This document shows, in pieces, positions 18,479 through 30,198 of a DNA stretch of 52,317 nt. The notes beneath the pieces are model-generated. The model saw only the letters and a program-made list of their open reading frames with translations, was not told the DNA's origin and did no database searches. This DNA is from a virus (lineage: Duplodnaviria > Caudoviricetes), in IMG/VR virus record IMGVR_UViG_3300021957_000053, positions 1-52,317 of that record; one strand, given 5' to 3'. Positions within the stretch are counted from its first letter, which is position 1. Each line of letters opens with the position of its first letter. The position numbers and the translations under genes are program-made.

Positions 18479-20076
18479 TACGCCACCTGTGATTCTTGTG
18501 TAAACAAATCCTCTCTTAGTATGGTTGTTGTTGGATCGTAGTACACTGATCCAGCCCTACCTAACTTAGCAAAAGGTCTGTTCTTATCTACGATAAAGGT
18601 TGTTGTGTTCTGTTCTACTTCATCTTCACTTTCTGCTGTACGTTCTAGCTTGATGCATATGATCGCCTCTTCCTCAAGTGAAGCAGCATACTTGGTACGT
18701 CCATCATCATTGACCTGAGAGATAAAGATCACACCAATGTTTAACTCCTTAGCTAACTGAGCCATACGTGAGCCTAGTGTAGTCAGTGTACTGGTAGCAC
18801 CATCCACACCTGAGTTAGATAGGTAGGCTAGACGTTGTACATGGTCAATAAATATGTAGCCAGCACCATACACTGTAACAGCTAGACGTACATAGTCGAG
18901 CAACTTAAGTGGATCATCGTGTGACATCATCTCAAAGATAATTGTCTTCTCACCTTTGGTTGCAATCTTAGCAGCCTCAATGACGTTCTGCTCTGACACG
19001 TTGTTGTTGGCAGCATCCTCTTTAGTTCTGACGTTTACACCTAGATGATACGTAGCCATAGCACGGTAGGTGGTAGACTTCATCTCTTCCATGTGCAGCA
19101 TTGCTACTGATGTATCACCATTGTTGAGTAAGCCTGTCTCAAAGTATCTGATCACCTCAGTCTTACCAGTACCACGAGGGGCTTTGATGAATGTCAATCC
19201 ACCCTTAACCATACCACGAATCTTTTCATCCAAGCCAGTGTGACCTGTTGGTACGTACTCATATGGATTCTCATTCTTGATTGCTGCTTCTACATCAGCA
19301 TCAGAACAAAAGAAATTCTCTGGTGTGTAACGTTGTGGTGATCGTGCAGCCCACATAAGCTTCTCATGCTTACCTGTCTCAAGGAACTCATTAGCATCTT
19401 TACACTCTGTCATAGGCACATAGTAAAACTTTTCAGGGAATGCCTGATACAATTTATCAGCAGCCCTACGTCCAGCATCATCAAGCTCACCTGCATACAC
19501 AATCTCTTTGAATGATGATAAGTATTTTAAATTGTGCTTGATAAACTTCTCACCAATAGATGCAGAAGGTAAAGACTTTACAGGGAATGTCTTGCCAAGG
19601 ATCTGATACAAGCTGGCTGCATCGAACTCACCTTCTGTAAGATAGATACGTTTACCTGTACCAGCATTGAACTCAGGGCCAAACAGGTGGTTCATACCAA
19701 GACCACGATCTTTGACCCATGACTTTGATTTGTCATTACACATACGATATTTAATTGTATGCGGGTACTTGTATGCATACCGTACATCCTCACCATTCGG
19801 GCCAGTCTGTATTTGTATTCCATAAAGTTTGCATACATCAGTATCAATACCTCTGATGCCATCATACTTAACACCAGTGACTTGTATATTCTGTGGTTGG
19901 ATACGTTCTTTCAAGGGGTACTCCTGCTTAACCCAATCAAATGTGGTGGGCATGTTCTTCATTGGATATGCCCTACTGCATGAGTGACAGTGACCGTAGC
20001 CATCATCATTCCAATTGAATGCATCCGAAGAACTACAATCTTCATAGGGGCATGGTGAATGTGGATTATCTGACAT
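18478..20076 (-). CDS. T7 gp4-like primase-helicase
   Basis: N-terminal Zn finger (CPYEDC...CHSC), Toprim TEGEFDA and KDANE, Walker A APRGTGKT, FIDH, KNRPF. Confidence 0.92.
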   Translation of the reverse strand: MSDNPHSPCPYEDCSSSDAFNWNDDGYGHCHSCSRAYPMKNMPTTFDWVKQEYPLKERIQPQNIQVTGVKYDGIRGIDTDVCKLYGIQIQTGPNGEDVRYAYKYPHTIKYRMCNDKSKSWVKDRGLGMNHLFGPEFNAGTGKRIYLTEGEFDAASLYQILGKTFPVKSLPSASIGEKFIKHNLKYLSSFKEIVYAGELDDAGRRAADKLYQAFPEKFYYVPMTECKDANEFLETGKHEKLMWAARSPQRYTPENFFCSDADVEAAIKNENPYEYVPTGHTGLDEKIRGMVKGGLTFIKAPRGTGKTEVIRYFETGLLNNGDTSVAMLHMEEMKSTTYRAMATYHLGVNVRTKEDAANNNVSEQNVIEAAKIATKGEKTIIFEMMSHDDPLKLLDYVRLAVTVYGAGYIFIDHVQRLAYLSNSGVDGATSTLTTLGSRMAQLAKELNIGVIFISQVNDDGRTKYAASLEEEAIICIKLERTAESEDEVEQNTTTFIVDKNRPFAKLGRAGSVYYDPTTTILREDLFTQESQVA

Positions 20077-20206
20077 TTGTTTTTCCTTTAATAAAGGTTT
20101 TTAAACTTTTGAAACTGAAGTATAGCAGCCAAAGAGGGATGAATGCAATACTACCTACGACAACAGATAAGGAAATTATGTACGGTATGTACTCACTTGG
20201 TGACAA
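20066..20206 (-). CDS. Small single-TM protein (not in ORF track)
   Basis: TTG start after AGGA; MSPSEYIPYIISLSVVVGSIAFIPLWLLYFSFKSLKTFIKGKTNVR. Confidence 0.45.
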   Translation of the reverse strand: MSPSEYIPYIISLSVVVGSIAFIPLWLLYFSFKSLKTFIKGKTNVR

Positions 20207-20432
20207 AAGTCCTATTCCTTTGGGTAGATCTAGTTCGTTCTTCTTTTGTCATAGGTCTTATGTATCGTTCGTAATCTACTACAGTACCTGTGTTCCATCT
20301 TGTTGCCTCAGAATCTGCCTTTTCTTTTGTTTCAAATAAAAGAACCTCTGAATCGTAAGTCCAAGGGTTTTCCTTTCGTACTAAAGTATACTCACCTTTT
20401 TCTATCTCAATCTGAACTGCGTACATCTTCAC
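20193..20432 (-). CDS. Hypothetical protein
   Basis: 79 aa ORF with an AGGAG RBS. Confidence 0.65.
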   Translation of the reverse strand: MKMYAVQIEIEKGEYTLVRKENPWTYDSEVLLFETKEKADSEATRWNTGTVVDYERYIRPMTKEERTRSTQRNRTFVTK

Positions 20433-20580
20433 TCCTTTCTGATTCTAAACCAGCTTTAACTAAAGCTATAAACCCTGCGTTAAAGATAGCTGCGAATGTT
20501 TTAGGGTCACACTCTACTTGTAGTGTAGCACTACCATCTTCATGTTCTTCTACTTCTGTAATTTTAATTATGTCATTCAT
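20407..20580 (-). CDS. Hypothetical protein (not in ORF track)
   Basis: MNDIIKITEVEEHEDGSATLQVECD... 57 aa; AGGAG RBS; EHEDGSAT pattern common in phage proteins. Confidence 0.65.
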   Translation of the reverse strand: MNDIIKITEVEEHEDGSATLQVECDPKTFAAIFNAGFIALVKAGLESERSEDVRSSD

Positions 20581-20731
20581 TGTTTACTCCTATGCATGGT
20601 AATAATATAGATAGCTTGCAGTACTTTGGGTATTCATCATACGTCATAGCTATTAATACTGGTGGTGCAGCTATCAGTAAAGCTACAATAGCTGACGCCT
20701 TGATCGCACCGTTAATGTTACCTCTCATCAT
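20573..20731 (-). CDS. Small membrane protein (not in ORF track)
   Basis: MMRGNINGAIKASAIVALLIAAPPVLIAMTYDEYPKYCKLSILLPCIGVNNE; ATGA overlap with thyX. Confidence 0.55.
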   Translation of the reverse strand: MMRGNINGAIKASAIVALLIAAPPVLIAMTYDEYPKYCKLSILLPCIGVNNE

Positions 20732-21381
20732 TCATTCTCCCTTAATGCTTCCCATGATACAGGAAACAGCTTAGCCATTTCAGTGTCTATATATCCAGCT
20801 ACAACCTGTGTTTCGTACTGTGTGTCAGGCTTACAACGTAGGTTACACATGTCTGCAAATGCATCTAAGCTACCTGACCAGTACCACTCAGTGACCATGC
20901 TCTGTGGCAGTACCATACGTGCTTGCTCTGGACACACACCTGCTTCAAGCAATGTTTCATATTCATACAATGCTGATCTGTTAAACTCATGTGGAACTAG
21001 GTAAGGAACCTTAACTTCACCTGAACTTCCTTGTTTTATATCCTCTGCTCTACCACGCCATTCACTAGGCACATATAACTCAGGCTCAGTGTCCACATAC
21101 CTACGACTAATCTCATTCCATCGTAGGAACTTATGCTTGACTAGCTGTCTAGCTACAAACACTGGAGCCTTGACATGGAAGCTGGCAAAGCAATGCCCGA
21201 AGGGGCTGATGTGCTTGTGCTTGGCTAGGTAACGTATGAGCTTGGCATCCTTGTCTTTCAACTTAGGTGGACCCCATACGTCACTGGTATCCATTTCACT
21301 ACGCTTACCAAAGCTTACTCGTGCTGCATTAGCTACAGATAAGTCAGTACCCATGTGATCTATGTAAAACGTTTGTAACAT
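20728..21381 (-). CDS. thyX: FAD-dependent thymidylate synthase
   Basis: ANAARVSF, HISPFGH, ARQLVKH...NEISRRY, PEQARMVLPQ. Confidence 0.93.
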   Translation of the reverse strand: MLQTFYIDHMGTDLSVANAARVSFGKRSEMDTSDVWGPPKLKDKDAKLIRYLAKHKHISPFGHCFASFHVKAPVFVARQLVKHKFLRWNEISRRYVDTEPELYVPSEWRGRAEDIKQGSSGEVKVPYLVPHEFNRSALYEYETLLEAGVCPEQARMVLPQSMVTEWYWSGSLDAFADMCNLRCKPDTQYETQVVAGYIDTEMAKLFPVSWEALRENE

Positions 21382-22466
21382 TATTTCTTTCTCCTATCTA
21401 ATGCTGACTTAGCTGCAGCATAAGTATGTTTATGGTATGGATTTAGTGAAGAGATATTCTGATGTCCTGTCACTGACATAATAGCTAGATGATCTACCTC
21501 TGAGTCAATCATTTCTACTATAGCACTCTTCCTTAAATCTCCGACAAGTAAATTAGATGGTAGGTCTGCAGCTTCTTTTATTTGATTTGCTAATGATGAT
21601 ACCTGACCTACGTTTAATGGTCTGTAGGCACCATCTGATGGTCTCTGATGTGGTACTACGTAGTCTTGAAAGTCCCAATCTTTTTTCTGTTGAGTGAGCA
21701 TGTCCATGATCTCTTCAGAAATTGGTAGCTCAACTGTTGCTCCACGTTTAGTTTGTTTTATCTTTACCTTCTTCTCTTTAAAATTAATTGAAGACCACTT
21801 TAATAATCTTATATCGGTAGGTCTTTGTGCCCACTCATAGCACATCAGTACAATCAATCCTACATTACGCCAATCAAAATCAGTGAATGCAACATCAAGA
21901 AATTTTTCTACCTGTTCTTGCGTCCATGTTGTATCTCTTGTTTCATGTTTTCTTTTACGAACTTTAGACATAGGGTTATACTTAATTAAATCAATAGAGA
22001 TACAAAAATTTATTAGTAATGAAAAGATTCTTGAACACTGATTCCCTTTAGACACACTTACATCTTCACACCATTCTTCATAAGCCTCAGTACAATGCAT
22101 AGCAGTAAGGTCTTTAATCTTAACCTGACCTAACTTCCTACTACCAACACTTGTATTAGCAATAGCATTCATTGTGTTATCGTAAGTTCTTTGTGAGTTA
22201 TATGCTAACTGTTTAAAATGTGTAGTTGTTACATAGTATTTATAAATGTGTAGTATTGTAGAGTTAGGCCCAATGTTTCCTGCGACAATATCTCCACGTT
22301 TAAATGCTTCTACCTTTTCTATCAGCCTTGGTATCTCATACCTTGCTGCACGTCCATCTTTAAATGTTTGTCTTCGTGCAACACCAGCATCAATAGCATC
22401 TTGTGGTGGTGTAAATCTCCATACAGTACCAGTCTTTAAGTTTCCTTTCTTTGTATATTTATACAT
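21381..22466 (-). CDS. int: Tyrosine recombinase / phage integrase
   Basis: Catalytic set: AQRPTDI (R), QTKRG (K), GDLRKS (HxxR with H replaced), VTGHQN (H), LNPY (Y); N-terminal arm-binding/core-binding-like regions. Confidence 0.88.
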   Translation of the reverse strand: MYKYTKKGNLKTGTVWRFTPPQDAIDAGVARRQTFKDGRAARYEIPRLIEKVEAFKRGDIVAGNIGPNSTILHIYKYYVTTTHFKQLAYNSQRTYDNTMNAIANTSVGSRKLGQVKIKDLTAMHCTEAYEEWCEDVSVSKGNQCSRIFSLLINFCISIDLIKYNPMSKVRKRKHETRDTTWTQEQVEKFLDVAFTDFDWRNVGLIVLMCYEWAQRPTDIRLLKWSSINFKEKKVKIKQTKRGATVELPISEEIMDMLTQQKKDWDFQDYVVPHQRPSDGAYRPLNVGQVSSLANQIKEAADLPSNLLVGDLRKSAIVEMIDSEVDHLAIMSVTGHQNISSLNPYHKHTYAAAKSALDRRKK

Positions 22467-22502
22467 AATAATATTTAATCCTTATAGTAATACTTTAAAG
22501 TA

Positions 22503-22532
22503 AGAGTAGCATAGTAGGGTACTACAACGCAA
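22503..22532 (-). promoter_or_regulatory. Putative integrase promoter, TGCTAC class
   Basis: Minus strand TTGCGT-N18-TACTCT with an extended TG; followed by the palindrome TACTTTAAAGTA at 22491-22502. Confidence 0.5.
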
Positions 22533-22548
22533 CACCCTACTAAATTTA

Positions 22549-22746
22549 TTATCTGTAACCGTCATCTTTCCATGACATAACTTCTGCAATTTTTTCTATA
22601 TTGCATAGGGTTTTAATACATTCGTATATAGTTACAGTACAGTCTGCAAAAGATAGACTGTTAGCAACGTCTACACTATCCGAAAGTAGATCTTGATAGG
22701 TGGACGCTACTCTTTCATCCTTATGGATAACCTCTACATAATACAT
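22549..22746 (-). CDS. Hypothetical early protein
   Basis: 65 aa ORF in a tightly packed operon. Confidence 0.6.
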   Translation of the reverse strand: MYYVEVIHKDERVASTYQDLLSDSVDVANSLSFADCTVTIYECIKTLCNIEKIAEVMSWKDDGYR

Positions 22747-22750
22747 AACA

Positions 22751-23011
22751 CTAACGCTTACCCCCTTCTATCACAATTAGTTGTGGGTTCCTTGGTTTAG
22801 ATGTCAAAACATTTCTCAATTCTTCATACCTTTCTAAGTTATAGTCTCGCATTTTTATCACAGGCTCTGTGTCCATGATGTCAAAGACAGCATTGGGGAA
22901 TGCATCTTCTAGTTTCTCGCAGATAAGACTAGCACTTTCGATGGTCGAGCACCTCATTACGAGGCACTCTTCCAACTCATCAACATACATTTCTACTACA
23001 TAATAATCCAT
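22751..23011 (-). CDS. Hypothetical early protein
   Basis: 86 aa; C-terminal LIVIEGGK motif. Confidence 0.7.
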   Translation of the reverse strand: MDYYVVEMYVDELEECLVMRCSTIESASLICEKLEDAFPNAVFDIMDTEPVIKMRDYNLERYEELRNVLTSKPRNPQLIVIEGGKR

Positions 23012-23014
23012 GTA

Positions 23015-23233
23015 CTATCCTGCAAAGTGATACAGCTTACGTCCATAAGCATGGTTAATATATAAGGTACGTTTACCGAAGTGATAAGCATTCATAGTAT
23101 GAAGCGGCTCATACTTGAGCCAACCACGAGAGCTACGGCTACGTTTGCGATACAATCCTTTCTTACCTAAGAGATTGAAACGAAACCCTTTTGTTCCGTC
23201 ATTAAGTGGTTTAGTTGCAAAGATTACAAACAT
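23015..23233 (-). CDS. Hypothetical basic early protein
   Basis: ATG 23233 follows AAGGAG (the track extends to 23263). Confidence 0.65.
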   Translation of the reverse strand: MFVIFATKPLNDGTKGFRFNLLGKKGLYRKRSRSSRGWLKYEPLHTMNAYHFGKRTLYINHAYGRKLYHFAG

Positions 23234-23249
23234 ATTTAACTCCTTTAAA

Positions 23250-23528
23250 TTAATAAGACCCATGATAGGGATGAATGCAGAGGTGAGGAAATGCCATCCT
23301 CAAACTACCTTCTGCACTAGATATACTTCTAGCATCTTCTATCGTAATGTCAAACATTTCTCGAAGATTGCTTTCAGTTTCTTGTAGTGCATCGTAGGCA
23401 GACTTGATTGCTTTTACCTGCTCGTCTATTAAGTCATGGCATTTTTCTTCAAGATCTATTCTACGTGCTTCTCGTTTATCTGCCCACTCTTGATGGCTCT
23501 TTGTGATTTCTTCTGGAGTCATTGTCAT
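23250..23528 (-). CDS. Hypothetical coiled-coil early protein
   Basis: 92 aa; AAGGA RBS directly after a palindromic repeat. Confidence 0.7.
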   Translation of the reverse strand: MTMTPEEITKSHQEWADKREARRIDLEEKCHDLIDEQVKAIKSAYDALQETESNLREMFDITIEDARSISSAEGSLRMAFPHLCIHPYHGSY

Positions 23529-23561
23529 TTTAGTTCCTTTCCATTCTCGGAATTTCCGTGA

Positions 23562-24401
23562 TTAAGCTGCAAGTAAAAAACGATTGTCACTAACCCACTT
23601 GGATACCTCCTGTTCTCTACCCCACATTGAGGTAGCTTGTGTGTCATTACCTGTATTACGAAGATTAAATCCATTACGATCATCTGCATAAGTAGCATAG
23701 TTAGTAAAGGCAGAGTACAAGGCCCACTTGTTTTCACCTCTCATGCATGTCTCTGTACGGTACAGTTGATACATCTTCTTTGCCTTACGTTCTGATGGTA
23801 TCATTGCTTCTAGCAATGCCTCTACATCTACATCCTTGAGGCTAGTCTGTGCCCATGTTTTCATCTTGATGGCTTGCTCATAGAAGTCTGACCGTAGGTT
23901 AGACAGTTCATTTATGAACGAGCTAAGTGAGAAGTTAGAGGTGTTCTTTCTCCGAACTTTATCATGCTCACCACTGATGCACCCATTGGTGCAGAAGCTA
24001 TCAATAGCACCAAAGAATACTTGGTTACTACATGACCCATCAATACCATGTAATGATATAATACGGTTCTTTACCTCAGTCTGATGTCGATCAGTTTCTA
24101 TAACTGATTTCATACTAGGTAGTGTAATGTCGAGCATAGCCCAAGCACCACCACGAGCAGTCCTGAAGTTAAAGTCTGCACCATGTAAGTCACCCTCTTG
24201 TAACTCCTGAGTAGCAGTGTCTACGACATTACGAAAGAAGTCACCATGATTGGCACAAGTAAAGTCCTTGCCCACAATACCAAGGTATTCACCTGTATTA
24301 GTATTGATTACATACTTCTTATCTTTGAATTTAGTTTCCTCGAACTCTACTTCAAAGTCCAAGTGCTCTGGTACGAATGATGTTGTTGTATCAAAAGGCA
24401 T
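23562..24401 (-). CDS. DUF932 / TIGR03299-like phage protein
   Basis: YLGIVGKDF..NH, HGIDGS, FCTNG, NKWALYSAFTNYAT pattern. Confidence 0.75.
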   Translation of the reverse strand: MPFDTTTSFVPEHLDFEVEFEETKFKDKKYVINTNTGEYLGIVGKDFTCANHGDFFRNVVDTATQELQEGDLHGADFNFRTARGGAWAMLDITLPSMKSVIETDRHQTEVKNRIISLHGIDGSCSNQVFFGAIDSFCTNGCISGEHDKVRRKNTSNFSLSSFINELSNLRSDFYEQAIKMKTWAQTSLKDVDVEALLEAMIPSERKAKKMYQLYRTETCMRGENKWALYSAFTNYATYADDRNGFNLRNTGNDTQATSMWGREQEVSKWVSDNRFLLAA

Positions 24402-24402
24402 G

Positions 24403-24564
24403 TTATATCTCCATTTCTGTTATAAATTCTAAAGCTTCTTCTTCATCTGCACTTTCAGTGTAATACGCCCAGAGATCTTCTTGAACGTAATTAATTAACT
24501 GATCTATATCTAAACTGTCTGTCCATTTAGTTATAGCTTCTTCAAGTTTATCTTCGATATTCAT
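24403..24564 (-). CDS. Small highly acidic early protein
   Basis: ATG 24564 after AAGGAG; 53 aa with 17 D/E and 2 K (the track start at 24654 reads through the repeat). Confidence 0.7.
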   Translation of the reverse strand: MNIEDKLEEAITKWTDSLDIDQLINYVQEDLWAYYTESADEEEALEFITEMEI

Positions 24565-24596
24565 ATCGACTCCTTTCATTCTCGGAATTTCCGTGA

Positions 24597-25295
24597 TTAG
24601 TGTTCCGATAGATGCACAATCTGTGTGCGGTTGATAGTCTTTTGTGCAAAGCAACCTGCCTTGCAGTCCTTGCAGTGACCCTTGAGATCCTTGTGGGTCT
24701 TAGGGCATAGGAACATTCTTGTTCCATAGACAGGATCAGATGTCAAGTCATCATCACCATAGAACATAATATTCCAGTCATCATCAATCAACATCTTCCA
24801 TTCAGCCTTGCTGTTGGATGGGTCAAGTGATGCATTAATGGCACAGTTAGGTAGAGGCATAAGCTCTTTCTCAATCAGAGCTTTGAGGCGTGGGTTACGC
24901 CATGCTCTGGTAGGAATCCACCATGTAGTATCTGGATTAAGTAGGCACATAGTCTTGACACGGTACACATCAATCACATCTTTGAAGGCTTCGCCTCTAG
25001 TCATGTGACGAACACGACTAGTATCATACCGTTTACGACTAAAGAATTTAGTGAAGTCAGAGTTAGACTTGTTTAGTTTCTGCCAGATAGTCTCACATCT
25101 GTCATCACGTTTAGCCATGTTAGGGTACATCTTGTATAACTTAACGTTATAACAAGTGTCATCGCAGTAATCTGTACGGTGGTCACAAGAACCAGTGTGG
25201 TTCTCGGTATCATTTATCGGTCTGTCTGTTGCAGCCATGCCTATGTCGGCACAGTATCTGAATAGATCATTAAGTTCTTGTGTTGTTACAGTCAT
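24597..25295 (-). CDS. Cys-rich Gp88-like / radical-SAM-like Fe-S protein
   Basis: C-x6-C-x3-CY, RVRH..GE, WIPTR, ASLD and C-terminal CP..CxxC..C. Confidence 0.65.
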   Translation of the reverse strand: MTVTTQELNDLFRYCADIGMAATDRPINDTENHTGSCDHRTDYCDDTCYNVKLYKMYPNMAKRDDRCETIWQKLNKSNSDFTKFFSRKRYDTSRVRHMTRGEAFKDVIDVYRVKTMCLLNPDTTWWIPTRAWRNPRLKALIEKELMPLPNCAINASLDPSNSKAEWKMLIDDDWNIMFYGDDDLTSDPVYGTRMFLCPKTHKDLKGHCKDCKAGCFAQKTINRTQIVHLSEH

Positions 25296-25325
25296 TCTCG
25301 GAATCTCCGTGATTGGATGTTTCGT

Positions 25326-25718
25326 TTAAGTTCTGAATACCTTTATGACAGGTTTATTTTGTTTGTCAATATACAAATAAGCAACCTCGGCATGGTAGAT
25401 CGGCTCATCGTGCTCATCTACAAATGTGTTTGCATGGTATGGGTTATACCTGACACGTTCAAGCCTAGCTACATCATGAGGCAAGGCATAGTCAGGATCT
25501 TGAAACCATAGGTCAGCATCCACCTCAACCTCTTGAGGTCTGACAAATGCATGTACATTCTTGACTCTTTCATCTTGAGTCTTTGCCCACCCTGCAGGTT
25601 GCACTGCAAAGATAGGCTTGTGTGCTATGATACTATTAGTATGCCATTGCACCTTACCGTTTCTTTTCCTTACAGAAAAGACATGCTTGTGTAGGTTATA
25701 ATATATCTCGGTCTTCAT
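25326..25718 (-). CDS. Conserved hypothetical phage protein
   Basis: YYNLHK..FSV...KNVHAFV...YNPY...FV pattern; ATG 25718 after GGAG. Confidence 0.75.
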   Translation of the reverse strand: MKTEIYYNLHKHVFSVRKRNGKVQWHTNSIIAHKPIFAVQPAGWAKTQDERVKNVHAFVRPQEVEVDADLWFQDPDYALPHDVARLERVRYNPYHANTFVDEHDEPIYHAEVAYLYIDKQNKPVIKVFRT

Positions 25719-25747
25719 TTGATTCTCCATTCTCGGAATTTCCGTGA

Positions 25748-26146
25748 TTACAATTTGATGCAAAAGTCTAGCTCTCTTGCTAGTTCATGCCATCCAGTAG
25801 GCATACATAGGTACGCCTTGTTCTGCTGCAAGTGCACTATTATGTTACCCACAGATAGGCTAGTGTCACCCTTAGCAAGGGTGGTAACCTTAGCTTTACC
25901 ATATCCATTCCCTGCATCAAAGACAGCTTCCAATGGGTCAACAGACTCAGATAGCACACCCAGATGCAGGAACTTGGTTGGGTAATACATGTTATGAAAC
26001 AAAGCATCATTGACACTCTGTTCTGCAGACTTCTCATTGAGAAGCCTCAAATCAAAAGCAATCCTTGCTATCTCTGATTGAGGGTTCTCATTAATTATGT
26101 CATAGACTTCTGGTCTGAACTGATAGACGAGGTATGATCTGGACAT
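25748..26146 (-). CDS. Hypothetical protein with a YodL-like motif
   Basis: YLVYQ...LEAVF...SLSVGNIIV...YLC...GW. Confidence 0.55.
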   Translation of the reverse strand: MSRSYLVYQFRPEVYDIINENPQSEIARIAFDLRLLNEKSAEQSVNDALFHNMYYPTKFLHLGVLSESVDPLEAVFDAGNGYGKAKVTTLAKGDTSLSVGNIIVHLQQNKAYLCMPTGWHELARELDFCIKL

Positions 26147-26301
26147 TGGCTTAACTCCTTGTTGCCATGAATTTCCTTAGTTCTGTCACAGGATGAAACA
26201 GATGTCAAGGCTTTTGTTTTGAATAGCATTTGTCGATGCCATATAGACCGCCAATATTTGTCGGCACGTAAAGCAAACCTATCACGTTTGTTAATCTGCA
26301 T
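26095..26301 (-). CDS. Hypothetical basic early protein
   Basis: GGAGG RBS and coupling to the upstream ORF; 3' part overlaps the next gene. Confidence 0.45.
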   Translation of the reverse strand: MQINKRDRFALRADKYWRSIWHRQMLFKTKALTSVSSCDRTKEIHGNKELSQCPDHTSSISSDQKSMT

Positions 26302-26425
26302 CTTCCTCCTCCATATTTAAAAACATTTCTGAGCACACTTCGCATAGATCACCACACTCATATCCATTCCATTCTGTATAGTGCAGAACTTCCTCTTCGT
26401 CACCACAGTTTTCACATTTAGGCAT
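26291..26425 (-). CDS. Small acidic zinc-finger-like protein (not in ORF track)
   Basis: MPKCENCGDEEEVLHYTEWNGYECGDLCEVCSEMFLNMEEEDAD; CxxC...CxxC; GAGG RBS. Confidence 0.65.
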   Translation of the reverse strand: MPKCENCGDEEEVLHYTEWNGYECGDLCEVCSEMFLNMEEEDAD

Positions 26426-26428
26426 AGC

Positions 26429-26662
26429 TTAATCCTCATCTCCACACATGTTATCCCATTCTTCAGGGCTGATACCTGTCTTAATAAACTCACGTTGCTC
26501 GGCATCCAAGTCAGGCATTACATTCTGAATCAGTTCACCTGATTGTAGCCAGTATTCTATCTTACCCTGAGTCGTAGGTAAAACCATAGAGTTTACTCTA
26601 CCTGAAAGCATAGACTTCTTGTGAACAAATACTTTGTTCTCTGCAATGTGTTCTATCCGCAT
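26429..26662 (-). CDS. Conserved hypothetical phage protein
   Basis: GELIQNVMPDLDAEQREFIKTGISPEEWD pattern; AGGAG RBS after a repeat copy. Confidence 0.75.
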   Translation of the reverse strand: MRIEHIAENKVFVHKKSMLSGRVNSMVLPTTQGKIEYWLQSGELIQNVMPDLDAEQREFIKTGISPEEWDNMCGDED

Positions 26663-26808
26663 GTTATTCTCCTTTTCATTCTCGGATTTTCCGTGATTAG
26701 TTTTGCATTGTTAGGGAAACGTTTCAGTATCTTCGATACTTGGCGCATGTCACGACAAGTAAGATAAGAAAACATAAACCCTTCCTCATCATAGAAACAT
26801 ACACGCAT
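26653..26808 (-). CDS. Hypothetical small protein (not in ORF track)
   Basis: MRVCFYDEEGFMFSYLTCRDMRQVSKILKRFPNNAKLITENPRMKRRITCG; GGGGG RBS; reads through a repeat copy. Confidence 0.45.
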   Translation of the reverse strand: MRVCFYDEEGFMFSYLTCRDMRQVSKILKRFPNNAKLITENPRMKRRITCG

Positions 26809-26810
26809 GA

Positions 26811-26966
26811 TCACCCCCGATCAAAAGCTAAAACAGAAAGTAATATTACTACAGGTAGTAAGGATAATAATATTATAGGATTAATAGTAGTATAAGCTAC
26901 TATTAATAATATACTTGAAGTAGATATAAGTATTAATAACCAAGCAAGAAATAATATTACTGGCAT
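26811..26966 (-). CDS. Very hydrophobic two-TM early membrane protein
   Basis: MPVILFLAWLLILISTSSILLIVAYTTINPIILLSLLPVVILLSVLAFDRG; AAGGAG RBS; very AT-rich. Confidence 0.65.
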   Translation of the reverse strand: MPVILFLAWLLILISTSSILLIVAYTTINPIILLSLLPVVILLSVLAFDRG

Positions 26967-27047
26967 CGCATGATCTCCTTTGCCGCATGTCCACAAAAAA
27001 GTATTCTCGGAATTTCCGAGAACACCATTATACTTCTCTGAAGTATA

Positions 27048-27080
27048 AACAAAAAAAGCTCCCCGAAGGGAGCTTCTTTT
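27048..27080. terminator. Rho-independent terminator with a cUUCGg loop (minus strand, possibly bidirectional)
   Basis: AAGCTCCC-CGAA-GGGAGCTT flanked by an A run and a T run. Confidence 0.8.
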
Positions 27081-27264
27081 ATATTTCACCGAGAAAGATT
27101 AAACAATCTATAAAGCCTTCAGCTTTATGTTTGTTTATCCAAGAGTCACTCTCCTTTTTAAGGAGGACTGGTAAATCATATCTGTCGGTTATTAACCGAC
27201 CTTGATAGCAAAAACAGTATTCATTATCTGAATACTCTAAGATTTGAACTCCACTATATTCCAT
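27079..27264 (-). CDS. Hypothetical early protein
   Basis: 61 aa; GGAG RBS inside the motif AACTTAAATCGGAGATT. Confidence 0.6.
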   Translation of the reverse strand: MEYSGVQILEYSDNEYCFCYQGRLITDRYDLPVLLKKESDSWINKHKAEGFIDCLIFLGEI

Positions 27265-27311
27265 ATTTTAAATCTCCGATTTAAGTTGATCACGGAATTT
27301 CCGAGATTGAA

Positions 27312-27331
27312 TAGCCCCCCGAAGGGGGCTA
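27312..27331 (-). terminator. cUUCGg hairpin after the first early gene (terminator or stabiliser)
   Basis: TAGCCCCC-CGAA-GGGGGCTA; U tract is weak. Confidence 0.6.
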
Positions 27332-27337
27332 AATGAT

Positions 27338-27952
27338 TTACTTGAAGAGCTTTGCAAGCTCTTTTGCGAACTCAGATCTCTTAAAGCCTCCGGCTTGAAG
27401 AGCATCAAATACTTGCTCTGCAAGTTCCTTTTCGTTCTTGGCTATCACTGTCTCAAAGACAGTGTTCTTTAGCACTTCCTCAGCCTTATTAGGCTGCTCA
27501 GAAGCCTTCGGCTTGCCCTTCGAGGTGTTTCCTGCTGAAGAAGCTTTAGGCTTCTTACGAAGCTCAGGATGAGCTTCCAGAACAATCTTCCGTATCGAAG
27601 ATACGCCAAGTGCTGAAAGCTTACCAGCTTTGTTTAACTGTTGGACTTTAGTCCAATGGGTGGCAATCCACTTGGCATCATATTTATCAGCGGAGCTGAT
27701 GTTTTCATTCGACAAATCGGTTCCACCGATAAAAGAGCCGTAGGCTTTCTTGTCACCACCGAACAATGCTTCAATTTGAAGCAAGACATTACCGAGTTCT
27801 CGGTAAAGGTTAAGCTGATCCTCTTGGATCAGATAAAGCTTGTCATAACAAGCTACGGCATGGCTGATTCCATCAGTGATAGTGTAGGTCTTACGACCTA
27901 ATTTGAATTGGCTGTTCAATGTTACCGTAGGTAAAGTAGCTGAATTTGTCAT
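27338..27952 (-). CDS. First gene of the early arm, hypothetical
   Basis: 204 aa; GGAG RBS in AACTTAATCGGAGATT; own promoter upstream and hairpin downstream. Confidence 0.8.
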   Translation of the reverse strand: MTNSATLPTVTLNSQFKLGRKTYTITDGISHAVACYDKLYLIQEDQLNLYRELGNVLLQIEALFGGDKKAYGSFIGGTDLSNENISSADKYDAKWIATHWTKVQQLNKAGKLSALGVSSIRKIVLEAHPELRKKPKASSAGNTSKGKPKASEQPNKAEEVLKNTVFETVIAKNEKELAEQVFDALQAGGFKRSEFAKELAKLFK

Positions 27953-28011
27953 CGTTAATCTCCGATTAAGTTAAGGTTGCTGCCTCATCGATTTGCCGAT
28001 GAAGCCCTTAC

Positions 28012-28041
28012 TTTGTAGCACTATCCAAAATCGATTGTCAA
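28012..28041 (-). promoter_or_regulatory. Early sigma70-like promoter, TGCTAC class
   Basis: Minus strand TTGACA-N18-TACAAA with an extended TG. Confidence 0.6.
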
Positions 28042-28049
28042 GCCCTATT

Positions 28050-28352
28050 TAAACCCTAAAGGGTTTACCTATTCTCGGAAATTCCGAGATTGAACTTCCC
28101 CTTTAGGGGAAAAACTTCCCATCTTTTCCCAAGCATTATGCGAAAGAAAAAGCTATGCAGGTGATCCTGATCCCAAGCATGATCCCAACCGATTGAACCA
28201 TATTATGGTTTGACCATGATCTTGGTCTAAAGACCAAAGCCCTGTAATCCCCAAGAGATTACCTTGTAATCTGATAAAGGGAATCCCTTATTGTTTATAA
28301 AAACAATACATTTCAATGACTTGTCATTGATTCTTGTTGAATCCTACGGATT
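28050..28352. repeat. Cluster of about 10 unrelated short inverted repeats
   Basis: Examples: TAAACCCT-AA-AGGGTTTA, TTCCCCT-TT-AGGGGAA, AACCATA-T-TATGGTT, TTGGTCT-AA-AGACCAA, AGATTAC-CTT-GTAATCT, TCAATGAC-TT-GTCATTGA. Confidence 0.9.
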
Positions 28353-28699
28353 TACAGGCATGATCAAGCCCATCTAGGCTACGGGGGGCATGGGCCAGTG
28401 GGGGGTACGTAGATACTATATACACTCAATGACAGAGAGGGGTATTTTTAGTTGGTAACTACAATTATACCAGCCCATATATAGTATTCCCTAGTAAAAA
28501 CATAGGGTTAATCTAATTATTGGTACGAAAGTAAGTAGTCTATAATAGGATACTGGGGAGATATGTGAGATATGTTACAAAGTCTGTAACAATTTGTGAC
28601 CATATGGACTTATACTTTGTGGTAACTGGACTTACATAGAAATTTAATAGTGTTAAATAAATATTAAATTAATTTAAATATTATTTCTTACTTTTAGTC

Positions 28700-28727
28700 T
28701 TGACAAATATTCAAAGTGCGGTATAAT
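28700..28727 (+). promoter_or_regulatory. Consensus sigma70 promoter for the late arm
   Basis: TTGACA-N16-TATAAT. Confidence 0.7.
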
Positions 28728-28854
28728 ATACTTAAAGTATTACTTAGAGGGTACTTTAAGTATTAAATACTAATTATAATTATTAATAAATATTAATACT
28801 TAAAGAAATCCTTTAAGGATAGTGTAAATTTTTTGCTGTCGTAGGTAAAAAGTA

Positions 28855-28887
28855 TTGACTTCCCATTTTAAAGTAGTATAACTAAGG
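28855..28887 (+). promoter_or_regulatory. Sigma70-like promoter, TATAACTA class
   Basis: TTGACT-N16-TATAACTAAGG. Confidence 0.65.
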
Positions 28888-28895
28888 ACAATCAA

Positions 28896-29141
28896 TTGCC
28901 AAAAATGTATTCTTCCGATAATGTGCTAGAGGAATTTTATAAAGCTTTAGCTGATGAGGACGAGGGTAGACTCCGTAGAGTTCATATCCCACGTTCAGAT
29001 GTTTTTTATGTAAGAGAAAAAATATTTCAGGACACTGGCACTAAGTATTCTCTAGACAGAGTTGAAAGAGCTATGTATTTAGAGGGTCATCTTAGTGCCA
29101 GTGATGTTTTTGAACCTAGAAGAAAGAGGGAATGGGAATGA
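28896..29141 (+). CDS. Hypothetical protein, first gene of the late arm
   Basis: ORF of up to 81 aa (the start may be the downstream ATG at 28905). Confidence 0.7.
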   Translation: MPKMYSSDNVLEEFYKALADEDEGRLRRVHIPRSDVFYVREKIFQDTGTKYSLDRVERAMYLEGHLSASDVFEPRRKREWE

Positions 29142-29338
29142 CAGTAGCAATGGAACGTATTCTAGCTTGGAAGATAATGCCAAGACTAATGATGCTAGTA
29201 ATGACGGTTATGTATATTCGCTGTATTGAGTGGGCATTATCACAACCAGATCTATCTACACAGCAATCAGCATTAATATCGGTAGTTACTGGTGCTATGA
29301 CTGGGGCATTTGCTGTTTGGCTGAGTAACGAAAAATGA
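29138..29338 (+). CDS. Small two-TM membrane protein in the lysis cassette
   Basis: Two hydrophobic helices; ATGA overlaps on both sides. Confidence 0.7.
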   Translation: MTVAMERILAWKIMPRLMMLVMTVMYIRCIEWALSQPDLSTQQSALISVVTGAMTGAFAVWLSNEK

Positions 29339-29685
29339 TAGGTCAGATTCTAGGGGCAGTTGGTGGATTGGCTACCACTTACTTAGATGGTAAGGTAGCG
29401 GTACAAAAAGCCAATGCTGAAATTAAAGTCAAGCAAGCTACTGGTGAGATTGACTGGGACATTGAAGCTATTAAAGCTACACAAAACTCATGGAAAGATG
29501 AGTGGATTACATTACTATTTTCAATTCCACTGATTCTAGCATTTTGTGGTGATTGGGGTAATAGTATTGTCCAAGCTGGGTTTACTGCATTGGACAGTAT
29601 GCCAGCATGGTATCAATACTCACTAGGTGGGATTGTAAGCGCCAGTATTGGAATACGATCCGTATCTAAATTTTTTGGGAAGTGA
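29335..29685 (+). CDS. Putative 3-TM holin
   Basis: SWKDEW..LLFSIPLIL...GF..L..MPAWYQY...ASIGIR; directly upstream of the endolysin. Confidence 0.7.
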   Translation: MIGQILGAVGGLATTYLDGKVAVQKANAEIKVKQATGEIDWDIEAIKATQNSWKDEWITLLFSIPLILAFCGDWGNSIVQAGFTALDSMPAWYQYSLGGIVSASIGIRSVSKFFGK

Positions 29686-29688
29686 CAA

Positions 29689-30198
29689 ATGAAAAAAAAC
29701 TTTGACAAATGTTTATCAATGCTACTACATCATGAAGGTGGGTTTGTAAATCACCCTAAAGATCCGGGTGGTATGACTAACCTTGGTGTTACTAAGGCTG
29801 TCTACGATAAGTGGATTGGTCGTGAGTCTACTGAACAAGAGATGCGTGACTTAACTTTTATAGATGTAGCTCCTATTTATAAAAAGAACTATTGGGATAA
29901 GGTAAGAGGCGATGATCTTCCTAGCGGTGTTGACTGGTGTGCCTTTGACTGGGGAGTTAATTCTGGTTCTGGTCGTCCAGCTAAAGCTATACAACGTGCT
30001 GTGGGAGCAACAGCAGATGGGGCTATTGGTCCTATGACCTTACAAGCTGTTATGAATAAAGAACCTCAAATGATTATTGAAAGTGTTTTTAATCAACGTC
30101 AGAAGTTCTATGAGTCTTTACGTACCTTTGAAACTTTTGGTCGTGGTTGGACTAGACGAAATAAAGAAACACTAGACCAAGCGTTGAGTATGATTTGA
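29689..30198 (+). CDS. Endolysin, glycoside hydrolase family 108 with peptidoglycan-binding domain
   Basis: HEGGFVNHPKDPGGMTNLGVT, FDWGVNSG, DGAIGPMTL, FGRGWTRR. Confidence 0.92.
   Translation: MKKNFDKCLSMLLHHEGGFVNHPKDPGGMTNLGVTKAVYDKWIGRESTEQEMRDLTFIDVAPIYKKNYWDKVRGDDLPSGVDWCAFDWGVNSGSGRPAKAIQRAVGATADGAIGPMTLQAVMNKEPQMIIESVFNQRQKFYESLRTFETFGRGWTRRNKETLDQALSMI

What the first reader, a model, noticed from the sequence alone, without database searches (positions are those of the whole stretch)
23542..28094. Eight 17-bp palindromes divide the early region into gene cassettes upstream of a tyrosine recombinase
Seen: the core TCTCGGAA-w-TTCCGWGA occurs at about 23542, 24577, 25293, 25728, 26677, 27003, 27288 (inverted) and 28071, and I noticed it nowhere else. 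On the coding strand four copies read TAA-TCACGGAAA(T/A)TCCGAGA-ATG followed by a purine-rich RBS. In three of them (23562, 24597, 25748) the TAA is the real stop codon of the upstream gene. The repeats therefore separate blocks of 1-4 small accessory genes, and the array ends about 1.1 kb upstream of the co-oriented integrase. Inference, competing models: (a) recombination joints for gain, loss or shuffling of early gene cassettes, integron-like if Int-driven or homology-driven as proposed for T4-type PeSL elements; (b) multiple operators for a dimeric protein, analogous to mycobacteriophage stoperators; (c) RNA processing hairpins; (d) loading or decoy sites on first-injected DNA. The 1-bp centre suits a dimeric DNA-binding protein better than a classical tyrosine recombinase core site, which has a 6-8 bp spacer.
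Basis: partly seen in the sequence, partly recalled or inferred. Interest (0 to 1): 0.88.

Follow-up and report, generated by a model that had tools for sequence, protein, structure and literature searches.

The report
Operator array in phage early region
Eight copies of a 17-base palindrome in the early genes of an uncultured marine phage are most likely docking sites for a phage-made dimeric DNA-binding regulator, a layout shared with lineage-specific variants by a whole family of ocean phages, rather than joints for shuffling gene cassettes.

Summary
Eight copies of TCWCGGA-N3-TCCGWGA lie at 23545-28089 and nowhere else in the 52,317-base virus record (0.02 expected by chance). Ten related IMG/VR records carry 6-8 copies each, at the same gene junctions. 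In 78 copies, 12 positions are practically invariant. Positions 3 and 15 are always A or T, in all four combinations, which fits double-stranded DNA read by a symmetric dimer better than a hairpin.

The sites always accompany the first early gene, f0 (27338-27952, no known family). In 57 f0-bearing contigs, 261 sites of the general form NNW[C/T]GGA-N3-TCC[G/A]WNN lie from the f0 promoter region onward. None lie on the other side. The outer bases differ by lineage. f0 is predicted to form a homodimer.

Best reading (0.55): an operator, stoperator-like array that controls early transcription, with f0 as the likely binder. The cassette-recombination model is not supported. Gene order is collinear, no copy has mixed flanks, and insertions break at start codons or ribosome-binding sites, not inside the motif. 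There are no experimental data, no cultured relative and no recognisable DNA-binding fold in f0. This is a new variant of a known kind.

The parts
28073..28089 (.). M1, a perfect palindrome TCTCGGAAATTCCGAGA. It lies 31 nt upstream of a TTGACA box on the - strand and sits between two 16-nt hairpin palindromes.
   Evidence: An equivalent copy lies within 260 nt upstream of f0 in 42 of 54 f0 loci.
28012..28041 (-). Putative leftward early promoter: -35 TTGACA (28036-28041), 18-nt spacer, -10 TACAAA (28012-28017).
   Evidence: Read by eye. The scan does not list it, because the -10 lacks T at position 6. The TTGACA box is conserved in relatives (flanks). This part is inferred.
27338..27952 (-). 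f0, the first early gene (204 aa). It is the candidate dimeric binder of the motif and belongs to no known family.
27312..27331 (-). GC-rich hairpin with a TTCG loop directly after f0 and 5 nt before M2; terminator-like but with a poor T-run.
   Evidence: Read. Not listed.
27290..27306 (.). M2, lying 25 nt upstream of the start of the 61-aa gene f1 (27079-27264).
27049..27082 (-). Intrinsic-terminator-like hairpin (15 pairs, TTCG loop, T7 run) after f1.
27005..27021 (.). M3, a perfect palindrome. TATAAT lies 5 nt upstream and a T-run follows on the - strand, so the scan flags it as terminator-like.
26680..26696 (.). M4 (centre AAAA on the coding strand). It lies inside the 3' end of the small ORF f10 and 17 nt upstream of the f8 start.
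25731..25747 (.). M5, between the stop of the 132-aa ORF (25748-26146) and the L5 gp82-like gene (25326-25727).
25296..25312 (.). M6 (GGAG in the centre). It abuts the ATG of the GP88-like 232-aa gene.
24580..24596 (.). M7, the first 17 nt of a 184-b unit (motif plus a 53-aa ORF, 24413-24596). The unit is present in 3 of 11 genomes. It is absent, with no motif left behind, in 6 of 11.
23545..23561 (.). M8, between the stop of the DUF932 gene (23562-24401) and the 92-aa gene (23250-23528). It is the last copy, 1,079 b before Int.

Best explanation
The eight palindromes are operators on double-stranded DNA for a symmetric dimer of a phage-encoded protein. Each monomer reads a half-site TC-W-CGGA, and the two half-sites are separated by a 3-bp centre that is not read. 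The most likely binder is f0, the product of the first leftward gene (27338-27952). Its gene is bracketed by M1 and M2. f0 is made first from the leftward promoter. As it accumulates it occupies M1 (upstream of its own promoter), M2 and M3 (just after the terminators that follow f0 and f1), and M4-M8 (in the short gaps between early genes). There it shuts down or gates host RNA polymerase along the early operon, by autoregulation at M1 and by roadblock or enhanced termination at the internal sites. In logic this resembles mycobacteriophage stoperators. What is shown: the sites, their invariance, their symmetry, their confinement to the early arm, their linkage to f0 across lineages with lineage-specific variants, and a predicted f0 homodimer. 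What is inferred: that f0 is the binder, that binding represses rather than activates, and whether the switch serves lytic timing or lysogenic immunity. My odds that f0 is the binder, given that the sites are protein operators, are about 0.6.
For: (1) The sites are real and confined: 8 of 8 copies lie in 4.5 kb of the early arm against 0.02 expected. In 10 of 10 related records examined, 6-8 copies per record all lie in the homologous region, with 0 for the reversed control. (2) In 78 copies from 11 genomes whose flanking DNA is 65-95% identical, positions 1, 2, 4-7, 11-14, 16 and 17 are invariant in at least 76 of 78. Positions 3 and 15 are A or T in 78 of 78, in the combinations AA 47, TA 11, TT 10 and AT 10. 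That means 57 of 78 would be mispaired in a hairpin. W-only positions without covariation suit readout of duplex DNA. (3) As RNA, the commonest form folds at only -3.3 kcal/mol, against -8.6 for the perfect palindrome. (4) M1 lies upstream of the conserved TTGACA box. In other lineages a copy lies inside the f0 coding sequence. 43 of 148 unique sites have no ribosome-binding site plus start within 70 nt downstream. These copies are hard to explain at the RNA or translation level. (5) Linkage to f0: in 57 IMG/VR loci found with the f0 profile, 261 generalised sites lie from the f0 promoter region downstream (305,547 b) and 0 lie on the other side (313,694 b). 50 of 57 loci have at least 2 sites. 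42 of 54 have one within 260 nt upstream of f0. The 2 loci with no such site carry the same half-site with a 4-nt centre. The early regions of CRP-345 and HMO-2011 have no f0 homologue by BLASTP and 0 sites. (6) Site variants follow lineage: TCWCGGA, TCATGGA, TGWCGGA and YTTCGGA. In the one lineage with a TGGA core throughout (L066), the otherwise conserved f0 segment LGVSSIRK reads LTPSRIRQ. (7) f0 is the only early protein of the window detected in all 31 loci with at least 6.5 kb downstream; the next best are f4 and Int at 27 of 31 and f2 at 26 of 31. f0's presence there is by construction. (8) f0 homodimer prediction: ipSAE 0.63 (three runs: 0.59, 0.73, 0.63) against a best control of 0.00. 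Partner pLDDT was at least 71 and the runs shared at least 60% of contacts. The mark was reached by 20 of 30 proteins solved as pairs and 1 of 23 solved as single chains; these counts hold only roughly because my own alignment was used. (9) In several lineages M2- and M3-type copies sit within about 25 nt after intrinsic-terminator-like hairpins. That position suits a roadblock.
Against: f0 has no recognisable DNA-binding domain. There were 0 Pfam or PHROG families. A per-member scan of 32 homologues gave only weak, scattered hits. Foldseek found nothing at E <= 0.001 in PDB or BFVD. The best VIA Z was 5.7, with KorB and Spo0J at 4.4-4.5, which is within noise for helical proteins. The f0 loci were retrieved with f0 itself, so the linkage is partly by construction, and only two f0-less relatives served as negative controls. 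Two f0 subtypes that are about 44% identical share the same motif. L082 and L092 mix CGGA and TGGA half-sites while keeping Lys at the position that is Gln in L066. L104 has an E-type f0 with a B-type site. Protein-site covariation is therefore weak and confounded by phylogeny. No fixed spacing to -35 or -10 elements was found relative to a mirror control, so the regulatory output, repression or activation, is not shown. 103 of 148 unique sites lie 10-39 nt before a start codon that follows a Shine-Dalgarno sequence, which would also suit a translational operator. A host factor as the binder is not excluded.
Confidence: 0.55

Rival explanations
1. Recombination joints. The motif would be the crossover site for gain, loss or shuffling of early gene cassettes, driven either by Int in an integron-like way or by short homology as proposed for T4 PeSL elements.
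For: Gene content between sites varies among 11 genomes. By my hand count, 7 of 12 distinct indel or replacement events in the array have an edge within 25 nt of a motif. A 184-b unit [M7 plus a 53-aa ORF] is present or absent as a block that starts exactly at the motif. In one genome (L047) a 21-nt patch, CTTAA plus the motif, replaces sequence conserved in the other 10 genomes inside the GP88-like gene, with the frame kept. That looks like short-patch conversion from another copy.
Against: Gene order is collinear in all 11 genomes. 0 of 78 copies pair flanks from different sites. Where [M7 plus ORF] is absent, no motif remains, and inserts after M4 and M6 bring no second motif. Neither outcome is what motif-by-motif recombination would leave. 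Crossovers fall in repeated Shine-Dalgarno sequence (AAAAGGAGAAT), at ATG or at TAA. 8 of 12 gene starts in the array carry a motif, so 7 of 12 events near a motif is no enrichment. At least 5 more indels lie downstream of M8 where there is no motif. Scans for M1/M5 and M1/M8 chimeric junctions gave 0 hits in viral contigs and 6 canonical M1 sites in metagenome contigs. A 3-bp centre between 7-bp arms leaves no room for a 6-8-bp tyrosine-recombinase overlap region (established knowledge). Two array-bearing loci of one lineage (L075 and L081) show no Int within 7.5 kb.
Confidence: 0.1
2. An RNA-level element. On the polycistronic early mRNA, the hairpin just upstream of each ribosome-binding site would be a translational operator, a processing site or a stabiliser bound by a phage protein.
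For: 103 of 148 unique sites lie 10-39 nt upstream of a start codon preceded by a Shine-Dalgarno sequence, and 39 of 148 directly abut a stop triplet. Positions 2 and 16 change together between lineages (C-G, G-C, T-A), as base pairing would also predict. M3 plus its T-run is flagged as terminator-like. RNA-library contigs span M5, M7 and M8, so the sites may be transcribed, although DNA carry-over is not excluded.
Against: 57 of 78 copies carry an A-A or T-T mismatch at positions 3 and 15, which leaves a 4-bp stem of -3.3 kcal/mol. W-only without pairing is not what a stem would select. M1 lies upstream of the promoter box. Some copies lie inside coding sequence, far from any ribosome-binding site. 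No Rfam family matched in 20000-30000 at E <= 0.1.
Confidence: 0.12
3. Centromere-like, silencing or origin sites. The array would be a set of ParB/KorB-type or iteron-type sites, bound by f0 for partition, replication initiation or spreading-type silencing rather than classical operator control.
For: There are multiple dispersed palindromes bound by one protein. f0 has weak fold similarity to the KorB DNA-binding domain (1r71, Z 4.4, rmsd 3.9, 88 residues aligned) and to Spo0J (1vz0, Z 4.5). An invariant basic linker, SAGNTSKGK, lies in a segment predicted to be disordered.
Against: Those Z values are within the noise stated for helical models. No ParB N-terminal domain and no ParA partner appeared in the Pfam or PHROG scans I ran. 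The phage carries an integrase, not a plasmid-prophage module. The sites track gene junctions rather than forming one cluster.
Confidence: 0.08
4. Sites for a host factor, or decoy or loading sites on the first DNA to enter the cell, unrelated to f0.
For: The binder has not been identified. The array lies beside the large non-coding region with strong promoters. In one record with direct terminal repeats the array starts 300 b from the record's end.
Against: The outer bases of the site differ between phage lineages together with the f0 lineage. A two-site pattern found nothing in 185,579 species genomes. Ends of assembled circular contigs are arbitrary, and other complete records have the array in the middle.
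Confidence: 0.07

Closest known systems
Stoperators of Cluster A mycobacteriophages (L5 gp71-type immunity repressor)
   Same: One phage protein is proposed to bind many copies of one short site. The sites lie at a promoter and in short intergenic spaces of an operon, where they would halt initiation and elongation. (Passages of PMC9283540 were read.) The copy number per kilobase and the stop-to-site-to-RBS placement are alike.
   Different: Stoperators are asymmetric 13-mers bound by a monomer. More than 20 of them are spread over the genome, and they work in only one orientation. Here the sites are 17-bp palindromes, which implies a dimer. There are 6-11 per genome, only in the early arm. 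The candidate protein has no detected relation to any known repressor family.
Lambda-type 17-bp operators for CI/Cro dimers
   Same: The site is 17 bp long with twofold symmetry about a central base pair, and a dimeric protein is implied (recalled textbook knowledge).
   Different: There is no tandem triple operator overlapping divergent promoters. There is no HTH_3 or S24 repressor. The sites are dispersed inside an operon.
KorB O_B operators of IncP plasmids
   Same: A dozen identical palindromes are dispersed over a replicon, at varying distances from promoters, and are bound by one dimeric protein that represses at a distance (recalled).
   Different: KorB is a ParB-family protein. f0 shows only noise-level fold similarity to it (Z 4.4) and no ParB domain. 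This is a phage early operon, not a plasmid backbone.
T4-type PeSL elements and integron attC sites
   Same: Short repeated elements lie between small accessory genes in a region whose gene content varies between relatives.
   Different: No sigma-70 promoter sits at a fixed distance from the sites. The element is 17 bp rather than about 50 bp or 57-141 bp. No exchange uses the repeat as its crossover.

Membership tests
Mycobacteriophage stoperator system | Asymmetric 13-mer site whose orientation follows the direction of transcription | tested here: not met
   The sites are 17-bp palindromes. Only the W positions 3 and 15 are asymmetric, and they flip between orthologous copies. The defining feature is taken from PMC9283540 passages.
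Mycobacteriophage stoperator system | Sites at a promoter and in short intergenic spaces of transcribed operons | tested here: met
   M1 lies upstream of the leftward -35 box. M2-M8 lie in or at the edge of gaps between early genes.
Mycobacteriophage stoperator system | More than 20 sites spread over the genome | tested here: not met
   There are 8 sites in 4.5 kb of a 52-kb record and none elsewhere. Relatives have 6-8, and other lineages have up to 11.
Mycobacteriophage stoperator system | Monomeric gp71-family repressor | tested here: inconclusive
   f0 hit no Pfam or PHROG family and is predicted to be a homodimer. It was not compared directly with gp71.
Mycobacteriophage stoperator system | Bound repressor halts elongating RNA polymerase | not testable with these tools
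   This needs in vitro transcription or reporter assays.
Integron (attC cassette array) | attC sites of 57-141 bp with R/L boxes, one per cassette | tested here: not met
   The repeat is 17 bp. Inserted ORFs after M4 and M6 carry no second copy. The attC features are recalled.
Integron (attC cassette array) | Cassette order and content reshuffled between relatives by site-by-site recombination | tested here: not met
   All 11 genomes are collinear, and 0 of 78 copies have mixed flanks. No chimeric junctions were found.
Integron (attC cassette array) | IntI-type integrase next to attI and Pc | tested here: inconclusive
   Int matches PF00589 only. The IntI-specific insertion was not examined. 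Int lies downstream of the array and is co-oriented with it.
T4-type PeSL | Early sigma-70 promoter plus stem-loop as one unit of about 50 bp | tested here: not met
   The promoter scan is at chance level in 22000-28950: 22 found against 22.4 expected. -35 and -10 elements show no fixed spacing to 148 sites.
Lambda-type CI/Cro operators | 17-bp pseudo-palindrome with a central base pair | tested here: met
Lambda-type CI/Cro operators | HTH (HTH_3/Cro) repressor and tandem operators at divergent promoters | tested here: not met
   No such domain was found in the 30 early and adjacent ORFs scanned with Pfam. The sites are 285-1,035 b apart.
ParB/KorB-type operator or parS sets | ParB-family binder (N-terminal CTPase domain plus HTH) | tested here: inconclusive
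   There was no Pfam hit. KorB at Z 4.4 and Spo0J at Z 4.5 are within noise.

The most novel reading that the evidence does not exclude
A new family of dimeric phage regulators (f0) and its own 17-bp palindromic operators form a stoperator-like array. The system has diversified into lineage-specific site variants across a large group of uncultured marine podoviruses related to HMO-2011 and CRP phages. New operator copies would be seeded by short-patch conversion of a 21-23-nt unit (TAA plus motif), even into coding sequence. The regulatory sites would then spread through the hyperplastic early region like a small mobile element, and would incidentally mark where new genes settle.
Probability: 0.3. 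Interest if true: 0.75.

Novelty: new variant of a known kind. Interest (0 to 1): 0.6.

Why it matters
Phages related to HMO-2011 and CRP are reported to be among the most abundant viruses in the ocean (recalled; the title of the HMO-2011 paper). How they time their early genes, or keep a prophage silent, is unknown, because they carry no recognisable repressor. This finding offers a concrete, testable regulon: one protein family and one site family. It has natural specificity variants (TC, TG or YT outer bases; CGGA or TGGA cores; 3- or 4-nt centres) that could be used to map a new DNA-recognition mode. It also widens the stoperator idea from asymmetric monomer sites in actinophages to symmetric dimer sites in marine podoviruses. 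The system is so far seen only in uncultured contigs. It appeared in 0 of 50,697 GenBank phage records with three f0 queries.

Tried and rejected
- Sequencing runs. Only Logan contigs of RNA libraries were available, so no RNA starts, ends or strand could be read. The 'joints' from 25749/25750 to 28094, 28281 or 26836 have 20-31 letters on the shorter side and sit on the repeated motif. I treat them as alignment artefacts of the repeat, not as recombinants.
- Chimeric-junction scans. The viral contigs gave 0 hits. The metagenome contigs gave 6 hits, all canonical M1 sites whose flank happens to read CCAT.
- Search for a prophage or host. A two-site pattern found nothing in genome contigs. The f0 profile found one 4,151-b contig in a Patescibacteria-labelled MAG, probably a binned phage fragment. 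No tRNA genes were found.
- Fold of f0. Foldseek against PDB and BFVD and VIA-wide gave nothing above noise. The solved-structure profile search gave one hit at E 0.88. The ESM Atlas nearest named cluster was DUF3102 at 0.93 with 150 shared features, which is only a lead. The per-member Pfam scan did not confirm it.
- Pfam scan of ten distant f0-profile hits. No known domain covers the matched part.
- N4-type hairpin promoter or another phage RNA polymerase promoter. No RNA polymerase was found among the large ORFs by Pfam or PHROGs. The large ORFs are structural or unassigned. The idea was dropped.
- Promoter-element reading of the motif (GAGAAT as a -10). There is no consistent -35, and there is too little room before the ribosome-binding site.
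- A second TGGA-core contig (L119). Its record has no f0 within reach, because the contig ends there. The K-to-Q covariation therefore rests on one lineage.
- Literature. Four searches gave listings with no description of these repeats. Supplements were not consulted.

Full report
**1. The observation.**
The pattern TCTCGGAAWTTCCGWGA, with up to 2 mismatches, matches 16 times. These are 8 sites read on both strands, against 0.02 expected from 100 dinucleotide-preserving shuffles. The looser TCNCGGANNNTCCGNGA finds the same 8 sites and no others. The window is a whole IMG/VR virus record of 52,317 b, 94% complete by CheckV. It holds nothing else like the motif, and the reversed control pattern gives 0.

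The sites are at 23545, 24580, 25296, 25731, 26680, 27005, 27290 and 28073. I call them M8 to M1, numbered along the direction of transcription, which runs leftward on the - strand. On the coding strand, four copies read TAA-TCACGGAAA(T/A)TCCGAGA-ATG and one reads CAA-...-ATG. For three copies the TAA is the stop of the upstream ORF. One correction: M4 lies inside the 3' end of a conserved small ORF.

**2. The setting.**
The window is a podovirus-like genome with two divergent arms that meet at a non-coding region of about 800 b (28090-28896).

- The leftward arm starts with a 204-aa ORF, f0 (27338-27952). It continues through small ORFs: an L5 gp82-like protein, a GP88-like protein and a DUF932 protein. 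Then come a tyrosine integrase, ThyX, a primase-helicase, a family A DNA polymerase and a class II ribonucleotide reductase.
- The rightward arm starts with membrane proteins and a GH108 endolysin. It then carries terminase, portal, capsid and tail genes.
- The closest named phages are Roseobacter phages CRP-345, CRP-1 and CRP-6 and Puniceispirillum phage HMO-2011.
- No phage RNA polymerase was found.
- The rightward arm has a perfect TTGACA-16-TATAAT promoter at 28700-28727, so the host polymerase is presumably used.

**3. Relatives.**
An exact-pattern scan of IMG/VR gave 34 loci. About 15 contigs held 2-6 exact copies. In 10 of 10 such records examined in full, there were 6-8 copies within one mismatch. 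All lay in one stretch of about 5 kb, and the control gave 0. I fetched these regions and oriented them.

The copies sit at the same junctions in every genome:

M1 - f0 - M2 - f1 - M3 - f9 f10 - M4 - [variable small ORFs] - M5 - gp82-like - M6 - [f37] GP88-like - [M7 f38] - DUF932 - M8 - f12 f4 f5 f6 - Int

**4. What the 78 copies say.**
Positions 1, 2, 4-7, 11-14, 16 and 17 are the same in at least 76 of 78 copies, although the surrounding DNA is only 65-95% identical. Positions 3 and 15 are A or T in all 78 and never G or C. All four combinations occur: AA 47, TA 11, TT 10 and AT 10. Orthologous copies flip between them. The three central bases vary.

A stem would select for pairing at positions 3 and 15, yet 57 of 78 copies are mispaired. 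The commonest form folds as RNA at only -3.3 kcal/mol, against -8.6 for the perfect palindrome. 'A or T, either way round' is what readout of duplex DNA tolerates; this rests on established knowledge of minor-groove degeneracy and is an inference here. I therefore read the site as two half-sites TC-W-CGGA for a symmetric dimer, with a 3-bp spacer.

**5. The cassette model.**
The content between sites does differ among genomes. But three lines of evidence go against the motif as a crossover site.

- (i) Gene order is collinear, and none of the 78 copies combines the left flank of one site with the right flank of another.
- (ii) The junctions show where the breaks fall.
  - The 184-b unit [M7 plus a 53-aa ORF] is present in the window, L041 and L050. 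It is absent in L042-L047, where the upstream TAA runs straight into the next gene's Shine-Dalgarno sequence and no motif is left.
  - The ORF f37 is inserted after the ATG that follows M6, without bringing a second motif.
  - The inserts after M4 have their crossover in a repeated AAAAGGAGAAT ribosome-binding sequence.
  - Motif-by-motif recombination would leave one motif after a deletion and two around an insertion. Neither is seen.
- (iii) I reduced the pairwise gaps (282 rows) by hand to 12 distinct events inside the array. Seven have an edge within 25 nt of a motif. But 8 of the 12 gene starts there carry a motif, so this is no enrichment. At least 5 further indels lie beyond M8 at junctions with no motif.

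Scans for chimeric junctions of M1 with M5 or M8 found none. The 'joints' in RNA-library contigs have only 20-31 letters on one side and sit on the repeat, so they are artefacts.

One observation keeps a door open. In L047, a 21-nt patch (CTTAA plus 16 of 17 motif bases) replaces a stretch that is nearly identical in the other 10 genomes, inside the GP88-like gene. The reading frame is kept. This looks like short-patch conversion from another copy. The motif may therefore spread by recombination even if it is not a cassette joint.

**6. The link to f0.**
f0 has no Pfam or PHROG family. It has 133 homologues in the 5.8-billion-protein set, all unnamed metagenome proteins. It has 132 cluster representatives in the 1.84-billion library.

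With the f0 alignment I fetched 57 IMG/VR loci. In them a generalised site, NNW[C/T]GGA-N3-TCC[G/A]WNN with arms matching in at least 6 of 7 positions, occurs 261 times.

- All 261 lie from the f0 promoter region downstream (305,547 b). None lies in the 313,694 b on the other side.
- 50 of 57 loci have at least two sites.
- 42 of 54 loci have one within 260 nt upstream of f0.
- The window's own chance expectation for the generalised site is 0.08.
- The two loci with no such site carry the same half-site with a 4-nt centre.

The outer bases differ by lineage:

| Lineage | Half-site |
|---|---|
| The window's group and a GC-centred group | TCWCGGA |
| One lineage (L066) | TCATGGA |
| Three groups | TGWCGGA |
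| One group | YTTCGGA |

In some groups the palindrome extends to about 23 bp. Copy number reaches 11 in 6.7 kb. In two groups a copy lies inside f0 itself, where it encodes the conserved peptide TDGPS.

The early regions of CRP-345 and HMO-2011 start with unrelated first genes and have 0 such sites. CRP-345 instead has six copies of a different palindrome, TGTCCAACGTTGGACA, with a control count of 1.

Among the window's early proteins, only f0 is detected in all 31 loci with at least 6.5 kb downstream; f4 and Int reach 27 and f2 reaches 26. f0's presence there is by construction.

**7. Is f0 a plausible binder?**
The AlphaFold model (pLDDT 76) shows an N-terminal beta-hairpin, six helices, a disordered basic linker that contains the invariant SAGNTSKGK, and a two-helix C-terminal domain. 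A homodimer is predicted with ipSAE 0.63 against 0.00 for the best of three controls. Partner pLDDT was at least 71 and the runs shared at least 60% of contacts. The mark was reached by 20 of 30 proteins solved as pairs and by 1 of 23 solved as single chains; this holds only roughly with my own alignment.

No solved or predicted viral structure matches above noise.

The segment LG(V/A)S(S/A)(I/V)RK is conserved in all lineages with a CGGA core. It reads LTPSRIRQ in the one lineage whose sites all have a TGGA core. A Lys-to-Gln change alongside a G-to-A change would fit textbook recognition rules (recalled). But L082 and L092 mix CGGA and TGGA half-sites while keeping Lys. L104 pairs one f0 type with another group's site. 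A second TGGA contig ends before f0. Covariation is therefore suggestive only.

**8. How it probably works.**
- M1 lies 21-31 nt upstream of a conserved TTGACA box. The 10-nt difference between relatives keeps it on the same face of the helix.
- f0 and f1 are each followed by a hairpin with a TTCG loop, and then within 5-30 nt by M2 or M3. The same order, terminator then site then ribosome-binding site, recurs in other lineages.
- M4-M8 fill the gaps between stop codons and ribosome-binding sites.
- No sigma-70 element sits at a fixed distance from the sites. The 17-25 nt between a site and the start codon leave no room for a promoter downstream of it.

The simplest reading is that f0, made first, binds all the sites. 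It would autoregulate at M1. It would block or terminate polymerase at the internal sites, switching the early arm off or keeping it silent.

Whether this serves lytic timing or lysogenic immunity is open. The phage has an integrase. But no prophage copy was found in 185,579 species genomes, apart from one 4-kb MAG contig. No cultured phage among 50,697 GenBank records has an f0 homologue, with three queries.

**9. Comparison with known systems.**
The logic is closest to the stoperators of Cluster A mycobacteriophages. There, one repressor binds sites at promoters and in short intergenic spaces and silences elongation (PMC9283540, passages read). The defining features of that family are not met here. 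Those are asymmetric 13-mers, a monomeric repressor, more than 20 sites across the genome, and dependence on orientation. The geometry is that of lambda-type 17-bp operators. The dispersal recalls KorB O_B sites (both recalled). It is not an integron and not a PeSL array.

Four literature searches listed no paper that describes these repeats. I read listings only, apart from the passages of PMC9283540.

**10. Verdict.**
I rate this a new variant of a known kind, namely a symmetric, early-arm-restricted, stoperator-like operator array coupled to an uncharacterised protein family and widespread in uncultured marine podoviruses. Confidence in the operator reading is 0.55. Given that reading, my odds that f0 is the binder are about 0.6. 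Interest is 0.6.

Noticed in passing
L047 (G007) oriented coordinates 4569-4590; homologous to window about 25035-25060: A 21-nt patch (CTTAA plus 16 of 17 motif bases) sits inside the GP88-like gene of one relative. It replaces a stretch that is almost identical in the other 10 genomes, and the reading frame is kept (KSNSD becomes HGNSE). It looks like short-patch gene conversion from another motif copy.
   Followed up: partly
L086 7456, L090 7456, L114 7417, L082 6289 and others (inside the f0 homologue): In the TG-type lineages one motif copy lies inside the f0 coding sequence and encodes the conserved linker peptide (A)TDGPS. That peptide may be conserved because of the DNA site.
   Followed up: partly
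window 28050-28066 and 28096-28111: Two 16-nt hairpin palindromes (AAACCCTAAAGGGTTT and TTCCCCTTTAGGGGAA) flank M1 at 6 nt on each side. Relatives keep them with compensatory changes (CCC/GGG becomes CTC/GAG). Their function is unknown.
   Followed up: no
window 28090-28896: An 800-b non-coding region lies between the two arms. It contains GATC-rich repeats (TGATCC-like, about 28160-28225), a perfect rightward TTGACA-16-TATAAT at 28700-28727, and a second promoter-like TTGACT...TATAAC near 28856-28885. No tRNA gene and no Rfam family were found there.
   Followed up: partly
L051 (Roseobacter phage CRP-345, MZ892990.1) record positions 383, 1042, 2131, 7078, 14468, 54484: This relative has no f0 homologue and carries six copies of a different 16-bp palindrome, TGTCCAACGTTGGACA (up to 2 mismatches; control 1), mostly in its early region. 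It may be a parallel system with another binder.
   Followed up: partly
f0 residues 139-147 (window about 27512-27538): SAGN(T/V)SKGK is invariant or nearly so across f0 homologues down to about 30% identity. Yet it lies in a linker predicted to be disordered (pLDDT below 50). It could be a short linear motif or a DNA-contacting arm.
   Followed up: no
window 26653-26814: The small conserved ORF f10 reads through M4 (LITENPR is encoded by the motif). In L043 the W15=T form of the motif creates its stop codon.
   Followed up: yes
L155 (JBMYTV010000019.1, 4,151 b): The only f0 homologue in 185,579 species genomes (82% identity) is on a short contig of a MAG labelled Patescibacteria. It is probably a phage fragment binned by mistake and not evidence of the host.
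   Followed up: no
L086, L114, L108, L098, L085, L082: 15-35 nt upstream of M1: A conserved TGATTCGTT(C/T)T element precedes M1 in several distant lineages. A CGCATAATGC palindrome lies between M1 and the -35 box there, but upstream of M1 in the window (about 28137-28146).
   Followed up: no
window 23562-25727: Three motif-flanked genes belong to families first named from mycobacteriophage L5's right arm or related elements: Phage_L5_gp82 (E 9.8e-20), GP88 (E 3.9e-06) and DUF932 (E 2.1e-09). Their functions are unknown.
   Followed up: no
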